Assembly (NCBI GenBank): GCA_003137095.1
Contig: PLET01000070.1
Location: forward strand, 585-64,584
Origin: Gammaproteobacteria bacterium
GTDB lineage: Bacteria; Pseudomonadota; Gammaproteobacteria; Steroidobacterales; Steroidobacteraceae
Direction of reading: 5' to 3'
Length of the DNA stretch: 64,000 bases
This document shows, in pieces, positions 7,109 to 52,290 of the stretch. The position numbers were made by a program, and so were the translations under genes. The notes under the pieces are model-generated. The model had not been told where the DNA came from and ran no database searches. It saw only the letters and a list, made by a program, of their open reading frames with translations. Within the stretch, counting starts at the first letter, position 1. Every line of letters begins with the position of its first letter.

Positions 7109-8629
7109 TTGGCCTTGAAGCTCGGAATTCTCGTGGCGGTGCTGCTGTACCTGCTGGTGCTGGTCGTGGGCGTCGGCACGTGGCTCGCGCGGCGCGCCCG
7201 CGGGCGCGCCGCCGTTCAGGGCGAATTCGCGCTCGCCGGACGCAGTCTCTCGACGCTCGAAGTCGCCGCGACGCTGGCCTTCTCGGTACTCGGCACCGCC
7301 CATATTCTCGGCGTGTTCGAATTGTCCTGGACACTGGGTGCCGCCGCCGTCTGGTTCTCGCTGGCGCACGTCGTGCTGCTCGTCGTGGTCTGCCTGTCGA
7401 CCGGCCTGTGGGTGCGGCGCCTCGGGGTCTCCACGGTGCCGGAAATCCTGGAGCTGCTGTACGGCGAGAAAATGCGGGTGGTGGTGAGTTGCGTGATGGC
7501 CGGCGTGGTGACCGGCCTGCTCACCGTGGAAACCCAGGGTTTGGGCATCCTGATGGCCACCATGACCGGCTGGTCCCTGCACCAAGGCGCGGTGGCCGGT
7601 GGGCTCATCGGCATCCTCTATGTGATCGTCGCGGGGATGAAGGAGGTCGGCTATCTCAACGTGATCAACGCCACGGTGAAATACGGCGGGCTGATCCTCG
7701 CCACCCTGTTCCTCGCCGCGAGTCTGCCGGGCGGCAACTTCGAGAGCGTGCGCAGCTTCTACCTTCATCGCGGCGAACCGCAGATGCTGAGCATCTACGG
7801 CACGCCGCAGATCCTGCTGAGCTTTGCACTGGCGAGCATCATTGCGGTGCTGTTCAGCCAGGGCATCAGCCAGAATCTTCTGCAGCCGGCCATGGGTGCG
7901 CGCGACGAGGCCACCATCCGCCGAGCGCTGTGGATCGCGGCGCCGCTCAATGGCATGTTCGGGGTGTTCGCCGTGGTGATCGGCCTCACCGCGAGGTCCT
8001 TGCCCCAGTTCCAGGCGCTCGGCCCCAAGGTGGCGGCGACCAGCATGCTGGTCGCGCTGCTGCCGCCGTGGCTCGCGGCGCTGCTGCTCGCGTCCTTTCT
8101 CACGGCGGTGCTGTCCACCTTTGCCATGGCCTGCCTCGCGCCGGCGACGCTGTTCAGCGTCGACATCTTTCAGCGGCTGTACCGGCCGGACGCCACCGAG
8201 GCCGAGGTCAAACGCGCCACGCGCGTCGCGATCCTGGCGGTCGGCGGCAGCGCCATCGGCGTGGCCTCCGCGCTGCCGCCGATACTCGCCGCCGTGAACT
8301 GGCTGTTCTCGTGGCTGGTGCCGGTGTTCTGGGTGGTGGTCTTCGGGCTGTGCTGGAAGCGCAGCGCCGGGGTGGCCGCGCTCACCCTGGGATCCGCCTG
8401 GGTGGTCAACAGCGCCTGGTCCTTCACCTCGCTGCCCGCGCTGCTCGGCGTGTCGGCGCTGCCGAACGTGTACGTCACGCTGGCCGTGACGCTGGCGGTC
8501 AGCGTAGTGGGCAACGCCTGCTCGACGGGGAGCGAAGCGTACTTCAGCTCGGGCGCGTACCGCACGCGGCGCGCATCGATTTCGCTGCGCCTGCCGGAGA
8601 CCGTGCGGATGACTGCGAAGTCGGGCTGA
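7109..8629 (+). CDS. Sodium:solute symporter (SSS) family transporter
   Basis: About 13 TM helices. N-terminal 'LAGRSLSTLEVAATLAFSVLGTAHILG' is typical of the SSS family. Confidence 0.85.
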   Translation: MALKLGILVAVLLYLLVLVVGVGTWLARRARGRAAVQGEFALAGRSLSTLEVAATLAFSVLGTAHILGVFELSWTLGAAAVWFSLAHVVLLVVVCLSTGLWVRRLGVSTVPEILELLYGEKMRVVVSCVMAGVVTGLLTVETQGLGILMATMTGWSLHQGAVAGGLIGILYVIVAGMKEVGYLNVINATVKYGGLILATLFLAASLPGGNFESVRSFYLHRGEPQMLSIYGTPQILLSFALASIIAVLFSQGISQNLLQPAMGARDEATIRRALWIAAPLNGMFGVFAVVIGLTARSLPQFQALGPKVAATSMLVALLPPWLAALLLASFLTAVLSTFAMACLAPATLFSVDIFQRLYRPDATEAEVKRATRVAILAVGGSAIGVASALPPILAAVNWLFSWLVPVFWVVVFGLCWKRSAGVAALTLGSAWVVNSAWSFTSLPALLGVSALPNVYVTLAVTLAVSVVGNACSTGSEAYFSSGAYRTRRASISLRLPETVRMTAKSG

Positions 8630-8733
8630 TGTTCTGGCACATTTTCATTCAATCCTCGCTGTTCATCGCAGCCGGGACCCTGCTCGGCGGCCTGATCAAC
8701 TGGTTGACCCGCGGCCGGGGCCCGGGCGCCTGA
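8629..8733 (+). CDS. Hypothetical 34-aa single-TM miniprotein (not in ORF track as its own ORF)
   Basis: ATG 8629 overlaps the symporter stop (TGATG). MFWHIFIQSSLFIAAGTLLGGLINWLTRGRGPGA = TM helix plus basic tail. Confidence 0.45.
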   Translation: MFWHIFIQSSLFIAAGTLLGGLINWLTRGRGPGA

Positions 8734-8777
8734 CTCGGGAGCACCTCGTGCGGGACACCTTGGCAACTCAGATCTGG

Positions 8778-8879
8778 ATGGGCGGGGTCATGGCGATCAT
8801 GGCGATCTATGGCGCCATCGCATGGTTCGGTTTTCTCAGGCGGCGGCGGAGCAGGTCATCGCGGCGGGTCGGCCCATGA
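8778..8879 (+). CDS. Hypothetical 33-aa single-TM miniprotein (not in ORF track)
   Basis: MGGVMAIMAIYGAIAWFGFLRRRRSRSSRRVGP. Its stop overlaps the ADH start (ATGA at 8876-8879). GC-rich third positions. No clear SD. Confidence 0.3.
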   Translation: MGGVMAIMAIYGAIAWFGFLRRRRSRSSRRVGP

Positions 8880-9979
8880 AGGCCCACGCCATGGTGCAGG
8901 TTGCGGATCGCGAGCTCGAGATGCGCGACATCGAGATCCCGGCCGTCGGCGCCGATGAAGGATTGCTGCGCGTGCAGGCCTGCGGCTTGTGTGGCAGCGA
9001 CGTCGAGCAATATGCCGGCGGCACGGTGTCGCGCGGATTGGGCAGCTATCCGATGATTCCCGGTCACGAACCGGTGGGAGTGATCGAGGCGGTGGGCGCC
9101 GCGGCCGGCGCGCGGTGGGGGGTCCGGGTTGGCGATCGCGTCGCGCTCGAGCCGCATCTGTCCTGCGGCGCCTGTGCGAACTGTCTGGCGGGGCGCTATC
9201 ACCTGTGCCGCATTCTGCGGCCGTCGGGGATCTCATCCTACGGCTACCTGCCCATGGAATTCGGACATGGCCTGTGGGGAGGCTATGCCAGCCATATTCA
9301 TCTGCACCCGCGCAGCGTGCTGCACCGGCTGCCGGATTCCCTGCCCCTGAAGCTCGCCACGATGTATCAGGCGATCGCCGGCGGCGTGCGCTGGTCCGTG
9401 TATCTGCCCGAAACGGCTCTCGGCGACACCGTGCTGGTGCAAGGCTGCGGCCAGCGCGGCCTGGGCGCGGTGATCGCCTGCCGCGAGGCGGGCGTGAGCC
9501 GCATCATCGTCACGGGCCTGGCGCGCGATGCCTTCAAGCTGGATCTGGCGCTCGCCCTGGGCGCGCAGCACGCCATCGTCGCGGATCGGGAGGACACCGT
9601 GGCGCGCGTGCTGCAGATCACCGGCGGCCGCGGCGCGGATGTGGTGGTGGATCTGGCGCCCGGCGCGCCGCAGACCGTGAGCCATGCCATCGATGCCGTG
9701 AAGGTCGGCGGCACGGTGGTGCTGGCCGGTCTGAAGGGCGGCCGGGCGGCGTCGATCGACACCGATCGGGTGATCTTCAAGGAGATCGCCCTGCGCGGCG
9801 CCTTCTCCCAGGGCTGGCAGGCGTATGAACAGGCGCTGCGCATTCTGGACGAGAACCGCCATGACCTGGCGCGCCTGAAGACCCATGAATTTCCGCTCGC
9901 ACAGGCGGCCCACGCCATCGGGATTCTGGCCGGTGACGTGCCGGGCGAGGAAGGCATCTGCCTGTCGCTGTACCCGTGA
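8876..9979 (+). CDS. Zinc-dependent alcohol dehydrogenase (MDR family)
   Basis: 'ACGLCGSDVEQY', 'GHEPVGVIEAVG', structural-Zn Cys cluster 'CGACANCLAGRYHLC', Rossmann 'VQGCGQRGLG'. Start at MKAHAMV.. (family-typical) rather than listed 8822. Confidence 0.85.
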   Translation: MKAHAMVQVADRELEMRDIEIPAVGADEGLLRVQACGLCGSDVEQYAGGTVSRGLGSYPMIPGHEPVGVIEAVGAAAGARWGVRVGDRVALEPHLSCGACANCLAGRYHLCRILRPSGISSYGYLPMEFGHGLWGGYASHIHLHPRSVLHRLPDSLPLKLATMYQAIAGGVRWSVYLPETALGDTVLVQGCGQRGLGAVIACREAGVSRIIVTGLARDAFKLDLALALGAQHAIVADREDTVARVLQITGGRGADVVVDLAPGAPQTVSHAIDAVKVGGTVVLAGLKGGRAASIDTDRVIFKEIALRGAFSQGWQAYEQALRILDENRHDLARLKTHEFPLAQAAHAIGILAGDVPGEEGICLSLYP

Positions 9980-11262
9980 GCACGCCGGTGCACCCCGTGA
10001 GCACCTCGGCTGCACCCGGGAACACGCCGCAGGGCGAATTTCGCCGCGGCTGGCGGGTGGTGCTCGCCGGATTGATCGGCAACGGCCTGAGCGCGGGCAC
10101 CCTCGGCTTCTACACCATCGGGGTGTTCGGACCGGAGATCGGCCGGGAGTTCCACTGGAGTTCGGGCCAGATAACCGCCGGCTTGCTGCTCAACACGTTG
10201 GTGGTGATGATTGCGGTGCCCATCGCCGGCATGCTGTCGGATCGCTTCGGCGTGCGCCGGGTGGTGCTCGCCTGCACGGCGCTGGTGATGCCGGCCTACG
10301 TGGGCTTTGCACTCATCGACGGATCGCTCTGGCGCTACTACCTGTCGTGGGCGCTGGTCGGCCTGCTGGGTGCAGGCACGTTTCCGCCCACCTGGTCGCG
10401 CGCCATCAACAGCCGCTTTCAGGTGCACAAGGGTCTGGCCCTGGGCATTTCGCTGTGCGGTACCGGCATCTCGGGTGCCATGCTCAAGCCCTTCGGATTC
10501 ATGATGCTGGCGCACTTCGGGTGGCGGACGGGCTATGTGGCGCTCGGCTGCCTGTCGCTGATCAGCTTTCTGGTGGCGCTCATGTTCCTGTTCGACGTGC
10601 CGAAGGCGGCGCACCCCGGCGCAGCGGCAATGCCGGCTACGCCGGCCGATTCGGCGGCGGCGCAGGGACCCACGCTGGCCATGGCCACCCGTCAATGGAG
10701 ATTCTGGGTGCTGGCGCTGGCGATCGGCGCCGCGGCGCTGGCGGTGGGCGGACCGTTGCCCAGCGTGGAAAGCATCTTGCGCGAAGCGGGATTTTCGCGA
10801 GAACAGATCATCAGCCTCGCCTCGATGGTGGGCCTGTCCATCATTCTGGGACGGCTCGGCAGCAGCTATCTGATCGATCGGCTGTGGGCACCGTTGGTCG
10901 CCATCGTCATGGTCGCGGCTGCCTCGCTCGCCATGCTGGCGCTCAGCTGGCTGAAGCCGAGCTTCGAAATTGCGGCGCTCACGCTGATATTCATCGGTGC
11001 CACCACCGGGATGGAAGTGGACATGGCACCGTTCCTGGTGGCCCGCTACTTCGGCAGCCGCCACTTTGCGGGCATCTACGGCGCCCTGTACGGCGTGTTC
11101 TCGATCTGCACCGGATCCGGCGCCGTGCTCTTTGCCGTGGGGCATGACCGGCTGGGTGCCTACAAGAGCGTGCTGCCGCTCTTTTCCGCCCTGCTGTTGG
11201 GCAGCGGCATTTTGCTGCTGTTGCTCGGGAGCTATGTCTATCCCTCGAAGGCTTCCCGATGA
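9976..11262 (+). CDS. MFS transporter
   Basis: 12 TM pattern, 'GMLSDRFGVRRVVL' motif. GTG start overlaps ADH stop (GTGA). Confidence 0.85.
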   Translation: MSTPVHPVSTSAAPGNTPQGEFRRGWRVVLAGLIGNGLSAGTLGFYTIGVFGPEIGREFHWSSGQITAGLLLNTLVVMIAVPIAGMLSDRFGVRRVVLACTALVMPAYVGFALIDGSLWRYYLSWALVGLLGAGTFPPTWSRAINSRFQVHKGLALGISLCGTGISGAMLKPFGFMMLAHFGWRTGYVALGCLSLISFLVALMFLFDVPKAAHPGAAAMPATPADSAAAQGPTLAMATRQWRFWVLALAIGAAALAVGGPLPSVESILREAGFSREQIISLASMVGLSIILGRLGSSYLIDRLWAPLVAIVMVAAASLAMLALSWLKPSFEIAALTLIFIGATTGMEVDMAPFLVARYFGSRHFAGIYGALYGVFSICTGSGAVLFAVGHDRLGAYKSVLPLFSALLLGSGILLLLLGSYVYPSKASR

Positions 11263-41208: not shown

Positions 41209-41361
41209 GGTTTCAGTTTATTGCGCAGCGGCGGTTCCGGCCAATCAATTCGCCGAATGTCACCTATCGCGCAAGCCGGGACGTGGTGCCCGGCCGCTCC
41301 GGTACCGCTTCGCTATGTGCGCTACCAGACTGTCGCGCATTGAATCCGCGCGTAAGTTCGC

Positions 41362-42081
41362 ATGTTGGCAATCACTGGGAAATGCCTCTTGCCCCGGATT
41401 CAGAATCAGATCATCGCTCGGCTGCCGCGACGTGATTGCGCGCATTTTATCGGCCTGTGCGACGAGGCGGATCTGGTCATGTCCGAGGTGCTGTGCGAAA
41501 GCGGTGCCGTCACCCGCTACGTGTATTTCCCGATCAGCGGATTCATCTCGCTGGTCACCGCGACCGATGGCAAACCCGTACTCGAGGTGGGCATGGTGGG
41601 CAGTGAAGGCATGCTGGGCGCGCAGCTGGTGCTGGGCGTGGTCACGGCGCCGATGCATGCGCTGGTGCAGGGGTCCGGCAGCGCGCTGCGGATCGCGGCG
41701 GCGCCATTTCGCAAGGAACTTGCGCACAGCAAGGCGCTGCGGGCGAGTCTGGAACGATACGTCTACGTCCTGATGAATCAAATGGCGGTTTCAGCGGCCT
41801 GTCTTCGCTTCCACGAAATCGGGCCGCGGCTCGCACGCTGGCTGCTGATGACCCAGGACCGTGCCCGGGCGGACTCCTTCCATGTCACCCACGAGTTCCT
41901 CGCCTACATGCTCGGGGTGCGCCGGGTGGGCATCACGGTGGCCGCGGTGGGTCTGCAACGCCGAGGTCTGATCCGATATCACCGCGGCAACGTCACCATC
42001 ATGAACCGCCGCGGCCTCGAGGCGGCGGCATGCAGCTGTTATGCAGCGAACAACAAGGCCTATGCCGACCTGATGAAATAA
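41362..42081 (+). CDS. CRP/FNR-family transcriptional regulator (paralogue A)
   Basis: cNMP-binding-like barrel 'YVYFPISGFISLV..GMVGSEGMLG', HTH 'HEFLAYMLGVRRVGITVAAVGLQRRGLIRYHRG', terminal 'CSCY' motif. Confidence 0.8.
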   Translation: MLAITGKCLLPRIQNQIIARLPRRDCAHFIGLCDEADLVMSEVLCESGAVTRYVYFPISGFISLVTATDGKPVLEVGMVGSEGMLGAQLVLGVVTAPMHALVQGSGSALRIAAAPFRKELAHSKALRASLERYVYVLMNQMAVSAACLRFHEIGPRLARWLLMTQDRARADSFHVTHEFLAYMLGVRRVGITVAAVGLQRRGLIRYHRGNVTIMNRRGLEAAACSCYAANNKAYADLMK

Positions 42082-42106
42082 CGGGACGGCGGGCGCCAAA
42101 CAGAGC

Positions 42107-42128
42107 AGCCGCCCCGCACGGGGCGGCT
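42107..42128. terminator. Hairpin between convergent genes
   Basis: AGCCGCCCCG-CA-CGGGGCGGCT (about 9-bp stem with a 4-nt loop), followed by CTTTC. Confidence 0.45.
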
Positions 42129-42173
42129 CTTTCAGCCTCGAATCTACGAAATTTTCGACTCCGCGAAGTTCGT

Positions 42174-42752
42174 TCAGGTTCCGCGGCGCGCCGTATAGGA
42201 GAACTTCTCGCCCTCGAGGGACGCGCTGGCCATCAGGCCGCCTTTGACGATGGTGAACACCGCCATGCCGTGGTTGTAGGCACCCACGACGGCCGCGTCC
42301 TTCATGCCCGCGCTCGCCCCCGCACCGGCGCCCATGGTGCCGACGCCCGCTCCGGCACCCGAGGAAATCGCCACGACGCTGGCGCCCGCCCCGAATTGAA
42401 AGTTGCCCGATTCGAATTCGTCAAGCGCACGCTTATCCTGGAAGAAGATGATTTCGCTGTAGGCTGCGCCGCCCGCCTGCCAACCGACGCTCAACTGGGT
42501 CACCGCCGTATCGCCGACCCGGATGCCCCGCGAATAAACTCGTCCCCTGCCGTGGGCCGCGCCGACGACGAAGCCGCCCTCTCCGACGGTTGGGAAAATG
42601 GCGTAGGCGTAGCTGTTCTTGAAGAAATCCGCGCTTTGCGCGGCATTCTTGAACAGCAGCGTCGCGTCCTGATATTTGCCGGCGTAGGCGGCTCCCGTGG
42701 CCAGTCCCAGCGTGGTCGCGAGAACGGCGGTCAATTTGGTCGAATGCTTCAT
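42174..42752 (-). CDS. Secreted SYLF (Ysc84/DUF500) lipid-binding-domain protein
   Basis: Signal peptide MKHSTKLTAVLATTLGLATGAAYA. 'AIFPTVGEGGFVVGAAHGRG', 'FQFGAGASV', 'GLMASASLEGEKF' fit the SYLF pattern. Confidence 0.75.
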   Translation of the reverse strand: MKHSTKLTAVLATTLGLATGAAYAGKYQDATLLFKNAAQSADFFKNSYAYAIFPTVGEGGFVVGAAHGRGRVYSRGIRVGDTAVTQLSVGWQAGGAAYSEIIFFQDKRALDEFESGNFQFGAGASVVAISSGAGAGVGTMGAGAGASAGMKDAAVVGAYNHGMAVFTIVKGGLMASASLEGEKFSYTARRGT

Positions 42753-42904
42753 GAGAATTCCTTGTAGCGAGTGATCAGTGGTTCATTGCCACCGCAGCAA
42801 CGCGAAATTGCGATGCTTCCCGGTGACGATTCCTACAACGCCAGAATGCGCGCAATGCGGCCGGACATCTGTACGCCAGCGCGCTTTGGCGTCGCCGTGG
42901 TTGC

Positions 42905-43645
42905 TCAGCCCATCCAGTGCACCGGCTCGACCGGGGCGGCCAGCTGCTTTGGCAGCAGCCGGTTCATCTCGCTCTTGACGGCGGCGTAACACTCGCAGGA
43001 GCGCGATTGCAGGCCGATCCGATCCACGACGTCGATGTGCCCGCGTCGATAGCGGATGAATCCGCCCTCCTGCAGCCGGCCCGCGGCCTCTGTGATGCTC
43101 TCGCGGCGCACCCCGAGCAGATTCGCGACCAGCTCCTGGGTCATGGTCAATTCCTGCGCCGGCAGCCGATCCAGGGTCCACAGCAGCCAGCGGCTGAGCT
43201 GCTGTTCGACCGAGTGGTGGCGGTTGCAGGCCGCCGTTTGGCACATCTGGGTGATGAGCGCCTGGGTGTAGCGCAGCAGCAGGCGCTGAACCGCGCCGCC
43301 GCGCGTGAATTCCACGCCGAGCGCGCGGCGCGACAGCCGGTAGGCGTGTCCTCCCGCACGTACCACGGCCGAGCTCGAGGTGGTGTCGCCGCCCATGAAC
43401 AGCGGCACGCCGACCATGCCCTCAGGACCCACCCCGGCAATCTCCGAAGACGCGCCGGAGCGGGTCACGTAGTGCAGCGAGACGATGGCGGTGACCGGGA
43501 AGTAGGCGTGTTCCAGCTGCCGGTCCGGTTCGTACATCGCGTCGCCCAGACGCATCGACAGCAATTCCAAATTCGGCGACAGGCGCTCGAAATCTCCGGG
43601 CGGCAGCGCCGCCAGCAGTTGATTTTGAGTGGGATGAGGGGCCAC
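42905..43645 (-). CDS. CRP/FNR-family transcriptional regulator (paralogue B)
   Basis: 'NQLLAALPPGDFERL', 'AYFPVTAIVSL', HTH 'QELVANLLGVRRESITEAAGRLQEGGFIRYRRG', 'CECY' motif. 21 nt after the REC-PAS gene. Confidence 0.85.
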   Translation of the reverse strand: MAPHPTQNQLLAALPPGDFERLSPNLELLSMRLGDAMYEPDRQLEHAYFPVTAIVSLHYVTRSGASSEIAGVGPEGMVGVPLFMGGDTTSSSAVVRAGGHAYRLSRRALGVEFTRGGAVQRLLLRYTQALITQMCQTAACNRHHSVEQQLSRWLLWTLDRLPAQELTMTQELVANLLGVRRESITEAAGRLQEGGFIRYRRGHIDVVDRIGLQSRSCECYAAVKSEMNRLLPKQLAAPVEPVHWMG

Positions 43646-43666
43646 GGGATGGGTCCGGGTAACCGT

Positions 43667-44488
43667 CTAATGCTGGCCGTTGATTTCGACGCCGATGCCG
43701 CGGTAACCGAGAAAGCGGCAGGCGGCGCTGAACATGGGCTCGCCGCTGACGCGGTAGCGATGCACCGAGCCGTCGGAACCCGCGCAGCTCATGCTGAGAT
43801 CGAGAAACGGCTGGCGCAACTCGATTTTCGACTGCAGCGCCCGCCGCTGTCCCTCGTCCCAGCCGGGACTCGACGCCGGATGCGCATCCTCCGCGAGCGT
43901 GCCGACGCGCATCCCGAGCATCTCGAGGACGGGCCCGGACACCTTGGTGAATGCGCCGCGCTCGTCCTGTTCCCAGTACCAGTCCGAGGCCAGCTCCGTC
44001 AGACTGCGGTAGCGCGCCTCGCTTTCGCGCAACTCCGCGGTGCGCTCCTGCACGATCCGTTCGAGATCGGCGTTGAACCGCTCGATCTGCCGGTACAGCA
44101 GGCGTACCTCGAGCATGTTGTGGATGCGGGCTCTCACTTCCGCCAGGTCGAAGGGCTTGCTGATGAAATCCCTGGCGCCCGCCTGCAGCGCCCGCAGCTT
44201 GTGTCCCGGCTGCGCGGTGAGCACGATGACCGGCATATAGCCGTCCGCAGTATTCGTTTTCAGACCTTCCATCACCTGGAAGCCGTCCATGCCGGGCATC
44301 TGCAGATCAAGAAGTATCAGGTCATAGAGATTTCGGCGATTCAGCGAACACACCTCGGCCGGATTCATGGTGGCGCTGACGCCGCGATAACCGGCCTCCG
44401 CGAGCAAGTGTGTGAGCAGCTGCACATTGGCGCATTGATCATCGACGATCAAAATGCTCGAGCCGAGAATGTCGCCGGTATCGATCAT
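43667..44488 (-). CDS. Response-regulator receiver fused to coiled-coil + PAS domain (no DNA-binding/enzymatic output)
   Basis: 'ILIVDDQCANV', 'LILLDLQMPGMDG', 'VIVLTA', 'KP' receiver motifs, then PAS-like 'YRSLTELASDWYWEQDERG'. ATG 44488 overlaps the kinase stop (ATGA). Listed ORF start 44884 is spurious. Confidence 0.85.
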   Translation of the reverse strand: MIDTGDILGSSILIVDDQCANVQLLTHLLAEAGYRGVSATMNPAEVCSLNRRNLYDLILLDLQMPGMDGFQVMEGLKTNTADGYMPVIVLTAQPGHKLRALQAGARDFISKPFDLAEVRARIHNMLEVRLLYRQIERFNADLERIVQERTAELRESEARYRSLTELASDWYWEQDERGAFTKVSGPVLEMLGMRVGTLAEDAHPASSPGWDEGQRRALQSKIELRQPFLDLSMSCAGSDGSVHRYRVSGEPMFSAACRFLGYRGIGVEINGQH

Positions 44489-46284
44489 GGTGCACCTGCC
44501 GCGGCATCCAGAGTGCACGGAAGGGCATGCGCGGATGCCAGTGCGCCGTCCAATGTGTCCATGAACCGGCCGACGTTGATCGGCTTGGTCAAATAGCTGA
44601 AGAATCCGGCGGCCAGGCCCTTTTCGATGTCGCCCGGCATGGCATTGGCGCTCAGCGCAATCACGGGAATGTGCGCGGTGTCCCGGTCCCGCGCCAGGAC
44701 GCCGAGCGCCGTCTGGCCGCTGATGCCGGGCAGATTGATGTCCATGAGAATGACATCGGGCCGCGTCGCCCGCGCCAGCTCGATGCCGCTGCTGCCGTCC
44801 TTCGCCACCAGCAGACGGATGTCCGGCCGTCTTTCGAGAAGCTTCTCGACCAGCAGCAGATTGGCCGGATTGTCCTCGACGCACAGCAGGGTGTGCAGCG
44901 GCTCCTGCGCAAGGGCAATCGAGGCCGCGACCGGCTTGCGCACCGCGGCTGCGGCCGGTAGGCGCGGGGCATGCGCCGCCTGCAGATCAATCCAGAAGAC
45001 GCTGCCCGCGCCCACGGTGCTTTGCGCGCCGAGGGTGCCGCCCATCATTTCCACGAGCCGTTTGCTCACCACCAGGCCGATGCCGGTGCCTTCCTCGCTA
45101 CCGGCCTCGCGCCCCAGGCGATTGAACGGCTGAAACAGCTGCGCGAGCTTCTCCGGAGGCAGTCCCTCGCCGGTGTCATGCACGGCGATGCGGGTGCGAT
45201 TTGCGTCGCTCAGATCGCAGATCACCTCGACCGCTCCGCCGGCGCGATTGTATTTGATGGCGTTCGACAGCAGATTGATGAGCACCTGTTTAAGGCGGGT
45301 TCGATCCGCCTTGACGTAGGCAGCCCGCTCGAATTGCGGAAACGTCAGGCCGATGCCGCTCTTCTGCGCCACGGGTTCGATCATGCCGTGACAATCGCCG
45401 AGCACCTCCGCGAGCGAGATGGGTTCGGGAGACAGGGACAGGCGGCCTGATTCGATCAACGCGAGATCGAGAATCTCATTGATGAGCTCCAACAGGTACC
45501 ATCCGGCCTGCAGGATCTGTTCGATGCTCTGGAGTTGCACCGGCGATGGCGGCGGCGTGCCCGATTCCATGAGCTGGGCGAATCCCAGGATGGCATTCAG
45601 CGGCGAGCGCAGCTCGTGGCTCATGCTCGACAAGAAATCCGATTTTGCGAGATTGGCCTTTTCGGCCGCCAGCTTGGCACCCTGCAGCGCCAGGTTGCTC
45701 TCCTGCAGAGCCTGGTCGAGCACGCGCCGCTCGATCTCGAACCGATTGCGCAGGGTATTGTCGGTGCCGATGAGCAGGTAGCCAATGATGGCATCGTGCG
45801 GGTCGCGCAGCGCGGTCACGGAGACCATGGCCGGGAAGCGGCTGCCGTCCCTGCGGATGTAGGTGAGTTCGTAGATGTCTTCGATGCCGCGCGAAGCCTT
45901 GAAGAAGAGGGCGTCGACGCCGGGCTGTATGGCGGTCGCCAATTCCGCACTCAGCAAGCGCGCCCGGGCGATGATTTCCAGCGGATCGGAGATGTCCGCC
46001 GGGGTGATCCGGTTGATGACTTCGTCGGCTGCGTAGCCGAGCATGCGTTCGGCGCCGACGTTGAAGATCTGGATCACGCCGCCCGCGTCGGTGGCGATGC
46101 AGGAAAAATCGGCGCTGTTGAATATGGCCTGCTGCAGAGCCGGCGCCACATCGGGGCGGATGGCGGCCGCCGGTCTTACCAGACCGGGCCGCGCGGACCT
46201 GCCGCGCTCTTGCGGCTCTCCCGATTTTTCCATGCACCCGATCATGGCCGCAACGGCGCCGCGTGTCCGTACGCTAGCGAACAA
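44485..46284 (-). CDS. PAS-domain hybrid sensor histidine kinase/response regulator
   Basis: PAS 'FSCIATDAGGVIQIFNVGAERMLGY', H-box 'SHELRSPLNAILGFAQL', 'DTGEGLP', 'GTGIGL', receiver 'LLCVEDNPANL..ILMDINLPGISG'. Start uncertain (TTG 46284; ATG 46245 or 46233). Confidence 0.85.
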   Translation of the reverse strand: MFASVRTRGAVAAMIGCMEKSGEPQERGRSARPGLVRPAAAIRPDVAPALQQAIFNSADFSCIATDAGGVIQIFNVGAERMLGYAADEVINRITPADISDPLEIIARARLLSAELATAIQPGVDALFFKASRGIEDIYELTYIRRDGSRFPAMVSVTALRDPHDAIIGYLLIGTDNTLRNRFEIERRVLDQALQESNLALQGAKLAAEKANLAKSDFLSSMSHELRSPLNAILGFAQLMESGTPPPSPVQLQSIEQILQAGWYLLELINEILDLALIESGRLSLSPEPISLAEVLGDCHGMIEPVAQKSGIGLTFPQFERAAYVKADRTRLKQVLINLLSNAIKYNRAGGAVEVICDLSDANRTRIAVHDTGEGLPPEKLAQLFQPFNRLGREAGSEEGTGIGLVVSKRLVEMMGGTLGAQSTVGAGSVFWIDLQAAHAPRLPAAAAVRKPVAASIALAQEPLHTLLCVEDNPANLLLVEKLLERRPDIRLLVAKDGSSGIELARATRPDVILMDINLPGISGQTALGVLARDRDTAHIPVIALSANAMPGDIEKGLAAGFFSYLTKPINVGRFMDTLDGALASAHALPCTLDAAAGAP

Positions 46285-46314
46285 TACCCGGCGCCGTGTC
46301 GCGGATTCACCCGC

Positions 46315-46548
46315 TCAGGCGGATATTTCGGATTTCAGCCGGACGTATTCGTCACGGGCGATCTCGCCCTTGGCGTAGCGTTCGTCGAGAATGTCGAGCG
46401 CCGGCTTGCGCGGCAGCCGGCCGTACTTCGAATGGGCGCGATAGGTGTAGCCCCAGTTGCCGATGCTCGAAAAGAACAGCAGAAAGACGCCGAACCACAG
46501 GAACCAGCCCCAACCGAAATACCAATCGTTCCAATACGTGTGAGCCAC
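46315..46548 (-). CDS. Trp-rich membrane miniprotein with C-terminal SHOCT domain
   Basis: GTG 46548 sits 7 nt after GGAG. VAHTYWNDWYFGWGWFLWFGVFLLFF.. TM segment, then 'ALDILDERYAKGEIARDEYVRLKSEI' (SHOCT signature). The listed 134-aa ORF is an upstream extension. Confidence 0.6.
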   Translation of the reverse strand: MAHTYWNDWYFGWGWFLWFGVFLLFFSSIGNWGYTYRAHSKYGRLPRKPALDILDERYAKGEIARDEYVRLKSEISA

Positions 46549-46747
46549 GATAATTCTCCGATGATGAACCAGGCCGCCAGTATGCGGCACACATCGCGCG
46601 CGTTCTGTACGCTGCCCCACGCGCGGCCGACGGACCGGGCGAACCCGCCCATGGGCCGGCGGGCGCAAAAAGTGACTGTACGCCAACGAACATAGAGTAG
46701 GATTGGGACAGGCCGGCATGGCCGGCCGTACGGACGGCAGCTATTCC

Positions 46748-47464
46748 ATGGCACAGGATCTGCGCAAGAATCACCTGCTGGCGGCGTTACCCGAGGGCGA
46801 ATGGACGCGTTGGTCGCCGTTGCTGGAACACGTGGAGATGCCCCTGGGCGAGGTGCTGTATGAGTCCGGCGTCGCACTGAAATACGTCTATTTTCCACTG
46901 ACTTCGATCGTATCCCTGCTCTACGTGATGGAAAATGGCGCCTCCGCGGAAATCGCCGTGGTAGGCAATGAGGGCATCGTCGGGGTCTCGCTGTTCATGG
47001 GAGGCGAGTCCACGCCGAGCCGGGCGGTGGTGCAAAGCGCGGGATCGGGTTGCCGGCTGACCGCCAAGGCCATGAAGGATGAGTTCGACCGGGCGGGCCC
47101 GGTCCTGCATCTGCTGCTGCGCTATACCCAGGCCCTGCTGACCCAAATGGCGCAAACAGCGGTCTGCAATCGACATCACTCGCTCGACCAGCAGCTGTGC
47201 CGCTGGTTGCTGCTGAGTCTGGACCGGCTGCAGGGCGATGAGCTCGTGATGACCCAGGAGCTGATCGCCAACATGCTGGGCGTGCGCCGCGAGGGGGTGA
47301 CGGAAGCAGCGCTTAAGCTGCAAAAGGCCGGGCTGATCCGTTACACCCGTGGCCACATGACGGTGCTGGATCGCAAAGGTCTCGAAGTGCGCACCTGCGA
47401 GTGCTATGCGGTAGTCAAAAAGGAGTACGACCGTCTACTGCCGCTGGGAGTGGCCGCGGCGTAG
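46748..47464 (+). CDS. CRP/FNR-family transcriptional regulator (paralogue C)
   Basis: Close paralogue of B ('NHLLAALPEGEW', 'VYFPLTSIVSL', 'QELIANMLGVRREGVTEAALKLQKAGLIRYTRG', 'CECY'). Start at ATG 46748 (MAQDL..). Confidence 0.85.
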   Translation: MAQDLRKNHLLAALPEGEWTRWSPLLEHVEMPLGEVLYESGVALKYVYFPLTSIVSLLYVMENGASAEIAVVGNEGIVGVSLFMGGESTPSRAVVQSAGSGCRLTAKAMKDEFDRAGPVLHLLLRYTQALLTQMAQTAVCNRHHSLDQQLCRWLLLSLDRLQGDELVMTQELIANMLGVRREGVTEAALKLQKAGLIRYTRGHMTVLDRKGLEVRTCECYAVVKKEYDRLLPLGVAAA

Positions 47465-51611: not shown

Positions 51612-51795
51612 GCCGTGACTCCGCCGCCCGTTACCAGGGGTATCCCTACAGGCAACGCACGGCCCGCGCATCGGATGACGCGCAGCGGCGGCGGTGGTCA
51701 CCGTGGGGTGTGTGCGACAGCGAACAGACCCGCCACCGGCGCGCCTGTAGCCTCGCGCATCGAACCCTCACCGCATGCACCCGGAGGCCCTCGTC

Positions 51796-52290
51796 ATGCC
51801 AAGACCCCCCGTCGCGTTCCGCCGATCGTTCGCCTGTTTGCTGATCGCCGCGGCCGCCGCAGTGGCAACGGCGCAGGCGGATCCTGCTTACGTGCAACAG
51901 CAGCTGTACGACGCGCTCGCCAAGGGGGACGTGGGCGGGGCGCTTGCGCTGTTCACCGACGACGCGGTGGTCGATACGGAGAGCGGCCTGTGCGCGCAGG
52001 CGCCGTGCGTGGGCAAGACCGCCATCCGCAAGGACTTCGAGCGCTACGTCAAGGACACGAGTCGACGGGTCACCGCACTCAGCACCTATGTCTCGGGAAA
52101 CGTGCTGGTGACGCGCTTCGAGGCCCGCAGTGCCACCATTCAGAAGGCCGGCGTCGATCGCATCATCCTTTGGGGGATCCGCGAAATGCGCGGCGATCTG
52201 ATCGCCTCGTCGCGCTGCTGCCTGCCGGATCGCACCGACGCGCAGACGGCCCGCTTCCTCGAATGGGATTATGCGCATCCGGGCCACTAG
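51796..52290 (+). CDS. Secreted NTF2/SnoaL-like protein
   Basis: Signal peptide MPRPPVAFRRSFACLLIAAAAAVATAQA, then 'LYDALAKGDVGGALALFTDDAVV' typical of the SnoaL/NTF2 fold. Confidence 0.6.
   Translation: MPRPPVAFRRSFACLLIAAAAAVATAQADPAYVQQQLYDALAKGDVGGALALFTDDAVVDTESGLCAQAPCVGKTAIRKDFERYVKDTSRRVTALSTYVSGNVLVTRFEARSATIQKAGVDRIILWGIREMRGDLIASSRCCLPDRTDAQTARFLEWDYAHPGH

What the first reader, a model, noticed from the sequence alone, without database searches (positions are those of the whole stretch)
41362..47464. Three CRP/FNR-like paralogues with a C-terminal CxCY motif around a SHOCT / hybrid kinase / REC-PAS operon
Seen: three CRP/FNR-type proteins of about 240 aa lie within 6 kb: A 41362-42081 (+), B 42905-43645 (-) and C 46748-47464 (+). 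B and C share long identical runs ('NRHHS', 'MTQEL.AN.LGVRRE..TEAA', 'IRY.RGH'). All three carry Cys-x-Cys-Tyr just after the HTH (CSCYAA, CECYAA, CECYAV). B is the last gene of an apparent four-gene minus-strand operon. The operon order is: Trp-rich SHOCT miniprotein (46548-46315), PAS hybrid kinase, REC-coiled-coil-PAS protein with no output domain (ATGA overlap at 44485-44488), then CRP-like B after a 21-nt gap. A secreted SYLF-domain protein follows, and C is transcribed divergently from the operon. None of these genes encodes an Hpt domain, although the kinase is a hybrid. Inference: this looks like a phosphorelay coupled to CRP-like regulators that may sense redox state or metal through the Cys pair. 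I do not recognise it as a characterised system.
Basis: partly seen in the sequence, partly recalled or inferred. Interest (0 to 1): 0.6.

Follow-up and report, generated by a model that had tools for sequence, protein, structure and literature searches.

The report
Kinase-linked Crp regulators with Cys3-His site
Three related Crp/Fnr-type gene switches sit around a sensor kinase and an output-less response regulator; together with a DNA box I found no paper on, they appear to switch on about ninety stress and low-energy promoters in this soil bacterium, and the same unstudied module recurs in hundreds of other genomes.

Summary
All seven genes, their domains, the ATGA overlap, the 21-nt gap and the CxCY motifs are as described.

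**What is conserved**
- The core is three genes: soluble PAS hybrid kinase, REC-coiled-coil-PAS, Crp 'B'. At least 594 beta- and gammaproteobacterial stretches encode a REC-PAS relative.
- In the 80 loci fetched, a Crp gene follows REC-PAS directly in 59 of 76 with room.
- SHOCT (0/80) and SYLF (1/80) are not conserved neighbours.
- A, B and C are three old lineages. Only the B clade is tied to REC-PAS.

**Candidate metal site**
- CxCY is invariant, together with a Cys and a His at the hinge (C140, H144, C217, C219).
- This Cys3-His set is a candidate metal or Fe-S site. I could not test it.

**New here**
- A 20-bp palindrome, T-m-TGTGCG-N4-CGCACA-k-A, lies before crpA, SYLF, the kinase, crpC/SHOCT and a SnoaL-like gene.
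- The genome holds 93 sites against 5 in a control.
- At 37 of 92 scored sites a -10-like hexamer lies at class II activator spacing.
- Predicted targets are stress, central-carbon and anaerobic-energy genes.

**Limits**
- The kinase's signal, the REC-PAS-to-Crp link and metal binding are all inferred.
- I found no paper on this.
- Earlier reports of this scan describe the same operon, box and Cys3-His site on other DNA.

The parts
41312..41335 (.). Operator box 1 (GCTATGTGCGCTACCAGACTGTCG) upstream of crpA. A -10-like TAAGTT lies at 41353-41358, which is class II spacing.
   Evidence: PWM scan of the window, 18.7 bits; spacing.
41362..42081 (+). crpA: Crp/Fnr-type regulator of the divergent A clade. 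Carries C-x3-H at the hinge and CSCY after the HTH.
42108..42127 (.). GC-rich hairpin (GCCGCCCCGCACGGGGCGGC) between the convergent crpA and SYLF genes. Probably a two-way terminator.
   Evidence: Inverted-repeat listing. Function is inferred.
42174..42752 (-). Secreted SYLF/Ysc84-domain protein. Predicted target of the box at 42866-42889.
   Evidence: Pfam Ysc84 and NCBIfam BPSL1445-like; box.
42866..42889 (.). Operator box 2 (weak, 12.5 bits), 3' of crpB and about 125 nt upstream of SYLF. CATTCT lies at class II spacing towards SYLF.
42905..43645 (-). crpB: Crp/Fnr-type regulator of the B clade, the clade found directly downstream of REC-PAS across genomes. Carries CNRHH and CECY.
43667..44488 (-). 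Response regulator made of receiver, coiled coil and PAS, with no DNA-binding or enzymatic output. The receiver Asp, Thr and Lys contexts are intact.
   Evidence: Pfam; 594 related stretches. Residues read from the translation.
44485..46233 (-). Soluble PAS / HisKA / HATPase / REC hybrid histidine kinase. The start is revised to ATG 46233; the ORF is open up to TTG 46284. No TM segment and no Hpt.
46264..46287 (.). Operator box 3 (GTATTGTTCGCTAGCGTACGGACA on the minus strand), between the SHOCT stop and the kinase start. CATGAT lies at class II spacing, which puts the predicted transcript start at about the kinase ATG.
   Evidence: 15.7 bits; sequence; spacing. Equivalent boxes lie upstream of the kinase in 20 of 53 related loci.
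46315..46548 (-). Trp-rich SHOCT miniprotein (77 aa). Not a conserved neighbour. Its two paralogues elsewhere in this genome each have a box upstream.
46673..46696 (.). Operator box 4 (TGACTGTACGCCAACGAACATAGA) in the divergent SHOCT/crpC intergenic region. No -10 hexamer at class II spacing on either side.
   Evidence: 22.4 bits.
46748..47464 (+). crpC: Crp/Fnr-type regulator of the C lineage. This is the most conserved type: more than 120 clusters share at least 84% identity with it.
51707..51730 (.). Operator box 5, outside the finding. TAGCCT lies at class II spacing towards the secreted SnoaL_2 gene (51775-52290).
   Evidence: 25.5 bits; Pfam SnoaL_2.

Best explanation
The locus is a regulatory hub built from an unstudied branch of the Crp/Fnr family.

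**DNA binding (well supported).** The three Crp-like proteins are most likely dimeric activators. They bind a 20-bp palindrome, T-m-TGTGCG-N4-CGCACA-k-A, centred about 41.5 bp upstream of transcript starts (class II position). Through this box they appear to switch on roughly ninety promoters. The targets are small envelope and stress proteins, sugar-phosphate enzymes, KaiBC homologues, hydrogenase maturation genes and multihaem cytochromes. They also include the kinase operon and at least crpA.

**Input through the kinase (inferred).** The soluble PAS hybrid kinase senses an unknown cytoplasmic cue and phosphorylates the REC-PAS protein. REC-PAS has no output domain, so it would act by protein contact. 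Its most likely partner is the co-transcribed B-clade Crp.

**Input through the cysteines (inferred).** The invariant Cys140, His144, Cys217 and Cys219 link the hinge to a C-terminal helix. They probably hold a metal or an iron-sulfur centre, which would give every paralogue a redox or metal input.

**Shown versus inferred.** Shown: gene order, family membership, residue conservation, the box and its promoter geometry. Inferred: which protein binds the box, the phosphotransfer, the REC-PAS-to-Crp contact and metal binding.
For: **Synteny**
- At least 594 stretches encode a REC-PAS relative.
- In the 80 loci fetched, a Crp gene follows on the same strand in 59 of 76 loci with room. The median gap is about 27 nt.
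- The kinase precedes REC-PAS in 50 of 64 loci, mostly overlapping by 1-4 nt.

**Phylogeny**
- The tree gives an A clade (100/100) and a B clade (100/99, 60 rows) that holds all 48 rows labelled as REC-PAS-linked.
- C-type copies lie outside the B clade.
- B differs from C at seven positions. Five are in the sensor domain, including Arg92 to Ser.

**Conserved residues and fold**
- C140, H144, C217, C219 and Y220 are invariant in 87 sequences.
- They are 88-99% conserved in the 150 best 50%-identity representatives of a family with 4144 representative clusters at E<=1e-30.
- The AlphaFold model (pLDDT 92) has the standard Crp fold. It places C140/H144 at the end of the dimer helix and C217/C219 at the start of an extra C-terminal helix.

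**The box**
- It lies upstream of the kinase in 20 of 53 loci, of crpC in 9 of 27 and of crpA in 9-11 of 11. It occurs in 0 of 57 control stretches.
- The 64-kb window has five hits, four of them in this locus's intergenic regions.
- The genome has 93 sites at 14 bits or more, against 5 in the reversed genome.
- The exact core occurs 28 times here, against 0-7 in 80 other genomes of the class.
- A TANNNT hexamer starts 29.5-30.5 nt from the box centre at 37 of 92 sites. The background is about 1 per offset.

**Targets**
- Target functions come from Pfam.
Against:
- That the Crp proteins bind the box rests on association and on its CRP-like geometry only.
- Family members exist without the kinase and REC-PAS. 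B. cenocepacia chromosome 2 has four copies and no REC-PAS orthologue. The kinase module is therefore an accessory input, not a requirement.
- The crpC box and the boxes near several other paralogues lack a -10 at class II spacing. Autoregulation of those copies may be negative or may work differently.
- The hybrid kinase has no Hpt partner in the locus, so the phosphotransfer route is uncertain.
- Only 20 of 53 related loci show a box within 300 nt of the kinase start as I placed it.
Confidence: 0.6

Rival explanations
1. The gene order reflects co-expression only. REC-PAS does not act on the Crp proteins. It could be a feedback inhibitor or phosphate sink for the kinase, as the single-domain receiver FixT is for FixL. 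Or it could act on an unrelated partner. The Crp proteins would then respond only to their own ligand or metal.
For: - Crp family members work without REC-PAS in other genomes.
- The operon carries a box of its own, so it could simply be one more target of the regulon.
- Variant loci add a REC-GGDEF paralogue, which shows that the kinase can feed outputs other than a Crp.
Against: - The pairing of REC-PAS with one particular Crp clade is very stable across two proteobacterial classes, with gaps of about 27 nt.
- The B clade has diverged specifically in its sensor domain.
Confidence: 0.3
2. The Cys3-His set is a purely structural zinc site, or an incidental disulfide. It holds the C-terminal helix against the hinge and senses nothing. 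Signal input would come only from a small ligand in the beta-roll domain and, for B, from the kinase.
For: - Cys3-His is a common structural zinc ligand set (general knowledge).
- The four residues are invariant even between paralogues that otherwise differ by 60%, as expected for a fold-critical site.
Against: - The site lies at the hinge that couples the sensor domain to the DNA-binding domain in Crp proteins.
- The predicted regulon is rich in anaerobic, redox and low-energy functions.
- From memory, the same ligand set (CxC plus Cx3H) holds labile [2Fe-2S] clusters in NEET proteins, and three Cys plus one His do so in IscR.
Confidence: 0.3
3. These are ordinary cAMP- or cGMP-responsive CRP proteins that control catabolite-type genes.
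For: Pfam finds a cNMP_binding-like domain, and the box has CRP-like spacing (TGTG-N8-CACA).
Against: - The cNMP score is below Pfam's cut-off for A and B.
- No NCBIfam model reaches its cut-off; the only hit is a marginal NtcA match for C, 16 bits against a cut-off of 245.
- The closest solved structures share only 14-21% identity.
- The stretch between the conserved Glu and the candidate Arg is about 17 residues instead of about 10. That Arg is Ser in the B clade.
- The box differs from TGTGA-N6-TCACA at the fifth base of each half-site.
- The targets are stress genes, not catabolic operons.
Confidence: 0.05

Closest known systems
FixL-FixJ-FixK cascade (rhizobia, Caulobacter; Burkholderia FixLJ-FixK, PMC5234846)
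   Same: A PAS histidine kinase and a response regulator are linked to a Crp/Fnr-family activator that controls a low-oxygen or stress regulon.
   Different: - The kinase PAS has no conserved haem-binding His.
- The response regulator has a PAS domain in place of FixJ's LuxR-type DNA-binding domain, so it cannot activate the Crp gene as FixJ does.
- The Crp protein carries a Cys3-His set, and its box is not the FixK/FNR box.
E. coli CRP (CAP) at class II promoters, box TGTGA-N6-TCACA
   Same: Same fold, same 16-bp core spacing, an Arg-Glu pair kept in the recognition helix (read from the alignment), and the box centred about 41.5 bp from the predicted start.
   Different: - No sign of a canonical cAMP pocket.
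- The half-site is TGTGCG with extra flanking conservation.
- An extra C-terminal helix carries CxCY.
- The genome has about eight paralogues.
FNR / ANR [4Fe-4S] oxygen sensors, including B. cenocepacia Anr/BCAM0049 (PMC9104464, PMC3721108)
   Same: Crp/Fnr-family activators that use cysteine ligands and control anaerobic or low-oxygen survival genes.
   Different: - FNR's ligands are an N-terminal Cx2Cx5C plus one central Cys. These proteins have none of them.
- The Burkholderia Anr-type genes are separate loci with that N-terminal cluster.
- The FNR box is TTGAT-N4-ATCAA.
CprK and FixK2 (Crp/Fnr members with redox-sensitive cysteines) and YeiL (predicted Fe-S); recalled from memory
   Same: Cysteines in or near the DNA-binding domain modulate activity.
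   Different: Those cysteines are at other positions and are not a conserved Cys3-His set. None of these proteins is coupled to a REC-PAS protein.
IscR and NEET proteins (3Cys-1His [2Fe-2S] ligation); recalled from memory
   Same: The same ligand set. NEET proteins also use a CxC plus Cx3H pattern.
   Different: Unrelated folds. Here the two halves of the pattern are 73 residues apart, and cluster binding is untested.

Membership tests
Crp/Fnr superfamily | C-terminal Crp-type winged helix-turn-helix | tested here: met
   PF13545 at E 3e-14 to 5e-11 for A, B and C.
Crp/Fnr superfamily | N-terminal beta-roll (cNMP-binding-like) domain plus a long dimer helix; overall fold | tested here: met
   PF00027 matches, above the cut-off only for C. 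The AlphaFold model has pLDDT 92. Foldseek matches M. tuberculosis CRP, GlxR and FNR with TM about 0.75.
CRP proper (cAMP receptor) | Canonical phosphate-binding cassette and cAMP contacts | tested here: inconclusive
   Pfam scores for A and B are below the cut-off, and no NCBIfam model reaches its cut-off. The Glu-to-Arg spacing is longer, and the Arg is replaced by Ser in clade B.
CRP proper (cAMP receptor) | Operator TGTGA-N6-TCACA | tested here: not met
   The consensus is TGTGCG-N4-CGCACA with conserved flanks.
FNR / ANR | N-terminal Cys cluster (Cx2Cx5C) plus a central Cys that ligate [4Fe-4S] | tested here: not met
   C and B have no Cys in their first 100 residues. A has only scattered Cys and no Cx2Cx5C pattern. 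The true Anr-type genes of B. cenocepacia show the cluster and are different loci.
FNR / ANR | FNR box TTGAT-N4-ATCAA | tested here: not met
FixLJ-FixK cascade | Haem-binding PAS in the kinase (proximal His) | tested here: not met
   Only a weak match to the first 40 residues of FixL PAS (E 0.005). No His or Cys is conserved at 95% in the PAS domain across 44 orthologues.
FixLJ-FixK cascade | Response regulator with a LuxR/FixJ DNA-binding domain | tested here: not met
   REC plus PAS only.
Multistep His-Asp-His-Asp phosphorelay | An Hpt domain or protein that partners the hybrid kinase | tested here: not met
   None in the locus or on the contig. The extra gene in variant loci is REC-GGDEF, not Hpt. 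Hpt domains exist elsewhere in the genome, so a remote partner is not excluded.
3Cys-1His metal or Fe-S regulators (IscR-like ligand set) | Four conserved ligands, close in space, that bind a metal or cluster | not testable with these tools
   The ligand set is invariant. Model coordinates are not returned, so distances could not be measured. Metal content needs the protein.

The most novel reading that the evidence does not exclude
This branch of the Crp/Fnr family holds a 3Cys-1His iron-sulfur (or other redox-active metal) centre that bridges the hinge and a C-terminal helix. That would be a second, independent way of building a redox or oxygen sensor in this superfamily. In addition, the B-clade member would be controlled by direct contact with a phosphorylated REC-PAS protein. 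This would be a two-component system whose output is a Crp-type transcription factor rather than the response regulator's own DNA-binding domain.
Probability: 0.2. Interest if true: 0.8.

Novelty: new variant of a known kind. Interest (0 to 1): 0.6.

Why it matters
The Crp branch is very large. It has 4144 representative clusters at E<=1e-30 and occurs on chromosomes, chromids and plasmids of Burkholderia, Ralstonia, Cupriavidus, rhizobia and on P. aeruginosa pKLC102. Even so, it has no curated family model, and I found no paper on it.

In this genome it appears to control about ninety promoters for stress, storage-carbon and anaerobic-energy functions. That would make it a main regulator of survival states in common soil and wastewater bacteria such as Accumulibacter, Thiobacillus, Rhodoferax and Nitrosospira.

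If the REC-PAS-to-Crp link and the Cys3-His site work as proposed, both would be new mechanisms in two of the best-studied regulator families. The box gives an immediate handle for predicting regulons in any genome that carries the family.

Tried and rejected
1. **Burkholderia lxa/Anr link.** The B. cenocepacia genes called Anr-related (BCAM0049/anr2, anr1) are true FNR-type proteins with the N-terminal Cys cluster. They are loci distinct from the four CxCY-family copies on the same chromosome. That literature is therefore not about this family. I could not decide whether BCAM0287 is a member.
2. **SHOCT and SYLF as part of a conserved neighbourhood.** Rejected: 0 of 80 and 1 of 80 loci.
3. 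**An Hpt gene hidden in variant loci** with an extra gene between the kinase and REC-PAS. The extra gene is REC-GGDEF.
4. **FixL-type haem or LOV sensing** in the kinase PAS. There is no conserved His or Cys.
5. **Sequence search of solved structures.** It gave only one remote Crp/Fnr hit for crpC and nothing useful for the REC-PAS PAS domain. One search used the wrong reading frame and was repeated.
6. **First attempt at B-versus-C specific positions.** It failed because grouping by identity to the window's copies mixed the clades. Grouping by gene position worked.
7. **A strict TGTGA-N6-TCACA scan** found nothing.
8. **Box scan of three Burkholderia loci** found none at 12 bits or more. The box may differ in that genus.
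10. **Literature searches.** Five searches on the domain and neighbour combinations and on the box sequence found nothing relevant.
Full report
**1. The observation**

All seven genes are at the stated coordinates. Pfam confirms their domains:
- Three Crp/Fnr-type proteins with HTH_Crp_2 and a cNMP_binding-like domain. The latter scores below the cut-off for A and B.
- A secreted Ysc84/SYLF protein.
- A receiver-plus-PAS protein of 273 residues.
- A PAS / HisKA / HATPase_c / receiver hybrid kinase.
- A 77-residue SHOCT miniprotein, with a GTG start behind GGAG.

The ATGA overlap and the 21-nt gap follow from the coordinates. The alignment shows the quoted shared runs and CSCY / CECY / CECY. 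No Hpt domain lies in the locus or on the contig, although the genome has twelve elsewhere. NCBIfam has no model that reaches its cut-off for any of the three Crp proteins.

**2. The genome and the family**

The window lies on contig C63 of a 4.7-Mb, 129-contig assembly. The closest relatives of crpC are named Steroidobacteraceae. The genome holds about eight copies of this Crp branch: three here, and others on C48, C99, C28, C40 and C21, some of them broken.

The branch is very large:
- crpC has more than 120 clusters at 84% identity or more.
- There are 4144 representative clusters (one per 50%-identity cluster) at E<=1e-30.
- It occurs on replicons of Burkholderia, Ralstonia, Cupriavidus, rhizobia and P. 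aeruginosa pKLC102.

It is patchy, though. In an even sample of the class, one genome per family, 4 of 81 genomes had it.

**3. What is conserved around it**

I used REC-PAS as the anchor. At least 594 genome stretches encode a relative at 60-74% identity. The 80 best loci include Accumulibacter, Thiobacillus, Rhodoferax, Hydrogenophaga, Cellvibrio, Arenimonas and Nitrosospira.

In those 80 loci:
- A Crp-family gene follows REC-PAS on the same strand in 59 of 76 loci with room. The median gap is about 27 nt.
- The kinase precedes REC-PAS in 50 of 64 loci, mostly overlapping by 1-4 nt.
- Extra C-type and A-type copies often lie within 10 kb.
- SHOCT was never found. SYLF was found once.
- Other recurrent neighbours are a protein I read as a BON-domain lipoprotein, small CsbD-like and DUF883-like proteins, and a large protein that looks like a glucan synthase (read by eye).

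A maximum-likelihood tree of 89 copies gives an A clade (100/100) and a B clade of 60 rows (100/99). The B clade contains all 48 rows labelled as REC-PAS-linked. C-type copies lie outside it. So the three window genes are old paralogues, not a local duplication, and only B is tied to the kinase.

Clade B differs from C at seven well-conserved positions. Five are in the sensor domain, including Arg92 to Ser at the place where CRP has its phosphate-binding Arg. This fits a different input for B.

**4. The cysteines**

In 87 sequences from the window and the related loci, C140, H144, C217, C219 and Y220 (crpC numbering) are invariant. In the 150 best representatives they are 88-99% conserved, and 125 of 153 rows show the complete pattern. 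C151 is conserved in C-type copies only.

The AlphaFold model (pLDDT 92, pTM 0.88) has the standard Crp fold. It places C140 and H144 at the end of the dimer helix (118-143), that is, at the hinge. It places C217 and C219 at the start of an extra C-terminal helix (218-230). The nearest solved structures are M. tuberculosis CRP, GlxR and FNR, at 14-21% identity.

Coordinates are not returned, so I could not check whether the four residues meet. From memory, three Cys plus one His ligate [2Fe-2S] in IscR, and NEET proteins use a CxC plus Cx3H pattern. This is a lead, not a test.

**5. The DNA box**

A dyad search on the regions upstream of the kinase in the related loci found TGTG-N8-CACA in 9 of 53, where 0.1 was expected.

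The refined model is a 20-bp palindrome, T-(C/A)-TGTGCG-yTAr-CGCACA-(G/T)-A. Its occurrence is:
- Upstream of the kinase in 20 of 53 loci.
- Upstream of crpC in 9 of 27 loci.
- Upstream of crpA in 9-11 of 11 loci.
- In none of 57 control stretches (REC-PAS coding sequence).

The 64-kb window has only five hits. Four lie in this locus's intergenic regions: before crpA, before SYLF, between SHOCT and the kinase, and between SHOCT and crpC. The fifth lies before a secreted SnoaL_2 gene.

Genome-wide figures:
- 93 sites at 14 bits or more, against 5 in the reversed genome.
- The exact core occurs 28 times, against 1 for the backwards control.
- The 80 other genomes of the class have 0-7. The second highest count (7) is in a genome with four family copies.

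A TANNNT hexamer starts 29.5 or 30.5 nt from the box centre at 37 of 92 sites, against about one per offset elsewhere. This is the geometry of class II activation by CRP-type proteins.

In the window:
- The crpA box has TAAGTT at that spacing, and the SnoaL_2 box has TAGCCT.
- The SYLF box has the weaker CATTCT.
- The kinase box has CATGAT. This puts the predicted start at about the kinase ATG (46233), so the mRNA may be leaderless.
- The crpC/SHOCT box has no such hexamer.

**6. The predicted regulon**

These Pfam families were found among genes behind strong boxes:
- Stress and envelope: PRC-barrel (three proteins), BON, DUF5670, YjbR, PqiA, SnoaL_2, Cupin_5 and a WXXGXW lipoprotein.
- Clock-like: KaiC and KaiB.
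- Anaerobic energy: an MtrC/OmcA-like cytochrome with a divergent NapC/NirT cytochrome, and the divergent hydrogenase maturation genes HycI and HypA.
- Central carbon: phosphoglucomutase, glucose-6-phosphate dehydrogenase and triosephosphate isomerase.
- Others: a heavy-metal P-type ATPase, a phytochrome and further signalling proteins.

A second phosphoglucomutase gene behind a box was judged by eye only.

Both SHOCT paralogues elsewhere in the genome have a box, with a -10-like hexamer at class II spacing. The paralogous Crp genes have boxes nearby.

On a B. multivorans plasmid, a family member sits among BON, DUF3309, Spy/CpxP, YSC84, PRC-barrel and CsbD genes. On pKLC102, a member is flanked by four boxes.

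**7. The kinase and REC-PAS**

- The kinase has no membrane segment. Its PAS domain is well conserved but has no invariant His or Cys across 44 orthologues.
- It matches FixL PAS only weakly, so its cue is unknown.
- The H-box, both receiver aspartates, and the Thr and Lys of REC-PAS are present (read).
- Some loci carry a REC-GGDEF paralogue between the kinase and REC-PAS, and not an Hpt.
- Among the 50%-identity representatives are predicted fusions of this Crp branch with PAS-GGDEF, histidine kinase and CheB modules. If these are real proteins, they tie the branch to signalling domains.

**8. Reading**

*Well supported.* This is a distinct, widespread Crp/Fnr branch with a Cys3-His signature. 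It has its own operator at class II position, a large stress and low-energy regulon in this genome, and a conserved three-gene operon that joins one clade of it to a PAS hybrid kinase and an output-less REC-PAS protein.

*Inferred.* The Crp proteins are what binds the box. The kinase phosphorylates REC-PAS. REC-PAS acts on Crp B by contact. The Cys3-His set binds a metal or an Fe-S centre.

*Main rival.* REC-PAS acts elsewhere and the gene order reflects co-expression only.

**9. Novelty and earlier notes**

I found no paper on this. The Burkholderia Anr and lxa literature concerns true FNR-type genes.

Earlier reports of this scan, on other genomes, describe:
- the same operon (e1-2129772),
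- the same box (e1-4230755, e1-5261594, e1-5231302),
- the same Cys3-His site (e1-2102983).

I read them after deriving the synteny, the box and the residue set here, so they agree with my results but are not independent evidence.

Noticed in passing
window 51707-52290: A strong box (25.5 bits), with TAGCCT at class II spacing, precedes a secreted SnoaL_2 protein gene (51775-52290). Both may belong to the same regulon.
   Followed up: partly
L015:8837-9793; by tblastn pattern also L029, L043, L047, L064, L088: In some related loci a REC-GGDEF protein lies between the kinase and REC-PAS. Its receiver is 64-69% identical to the REC-PAS receiver. The same kinase may therefore also drive c-di-GMP synthesis. 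The GGDEF domain was confirmed only in L015, by reading the translation, not by Pfam.
   Followed up: partly
proteins P0133, P0150, P0178, P0181, P0182, P0188, P0143: Among the 50%-identity representatives of the family are predicted fusions of the CxCY Crp module with PAS-GGDEF (four), histidine kinase modules (two) and a CheB methylesterase. I did not check whether they are real proteins or gene-calling artefacts.
   Followed up: no
G000 contigs C28:66836-67468, C40:2429-3001, C21:10079-10480: Further paralogues of the Crp branch appear split across reading frames (C28, C40, one with a TAG) or match only the C-terminal half (C21). They are possible pseudogenes or assembly errors.
   Followed up: no
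window 46233-46287 and 41353-41367: The box-to-hexamer spacing puts the predicted transcript starts of the kinase and of crpA at or within a few bases of their start codons. Neither has a clear Shine-Dalgarno sequence, so the mRNAs may be leaderless.
   Followed up: partly
G000 C127:11727/12044, C1:11234, C75:24449, C75:31446: Strong boxes precede KaiC-like and KaiB-like genes, the divergent hydrogenase maturation genes HycI and HypA, and a divergent pair made of an MtrC/OmcA-like multihaem cytochrome and a NapC/NirT cytochrome.
   Followed up: partly
L094 (P. aeruginosa pKLC102, NC_019202.1) 8098-10786: The Crp-family gene of pKLC102 lies next to the giant GH94 glucan synthase-like gene. It is surrounded by four boxes in front of small hypothetical genes and a SAM methyltransferase gene.
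   Followed up: partly
window 42108-42127: A perfect 6-bp GC stem (extendable to 8 bp) followed by TCTTT lies between the convergent crpA and SYLF genes. It is probably a bidirectional terminator.
   Followed up: no
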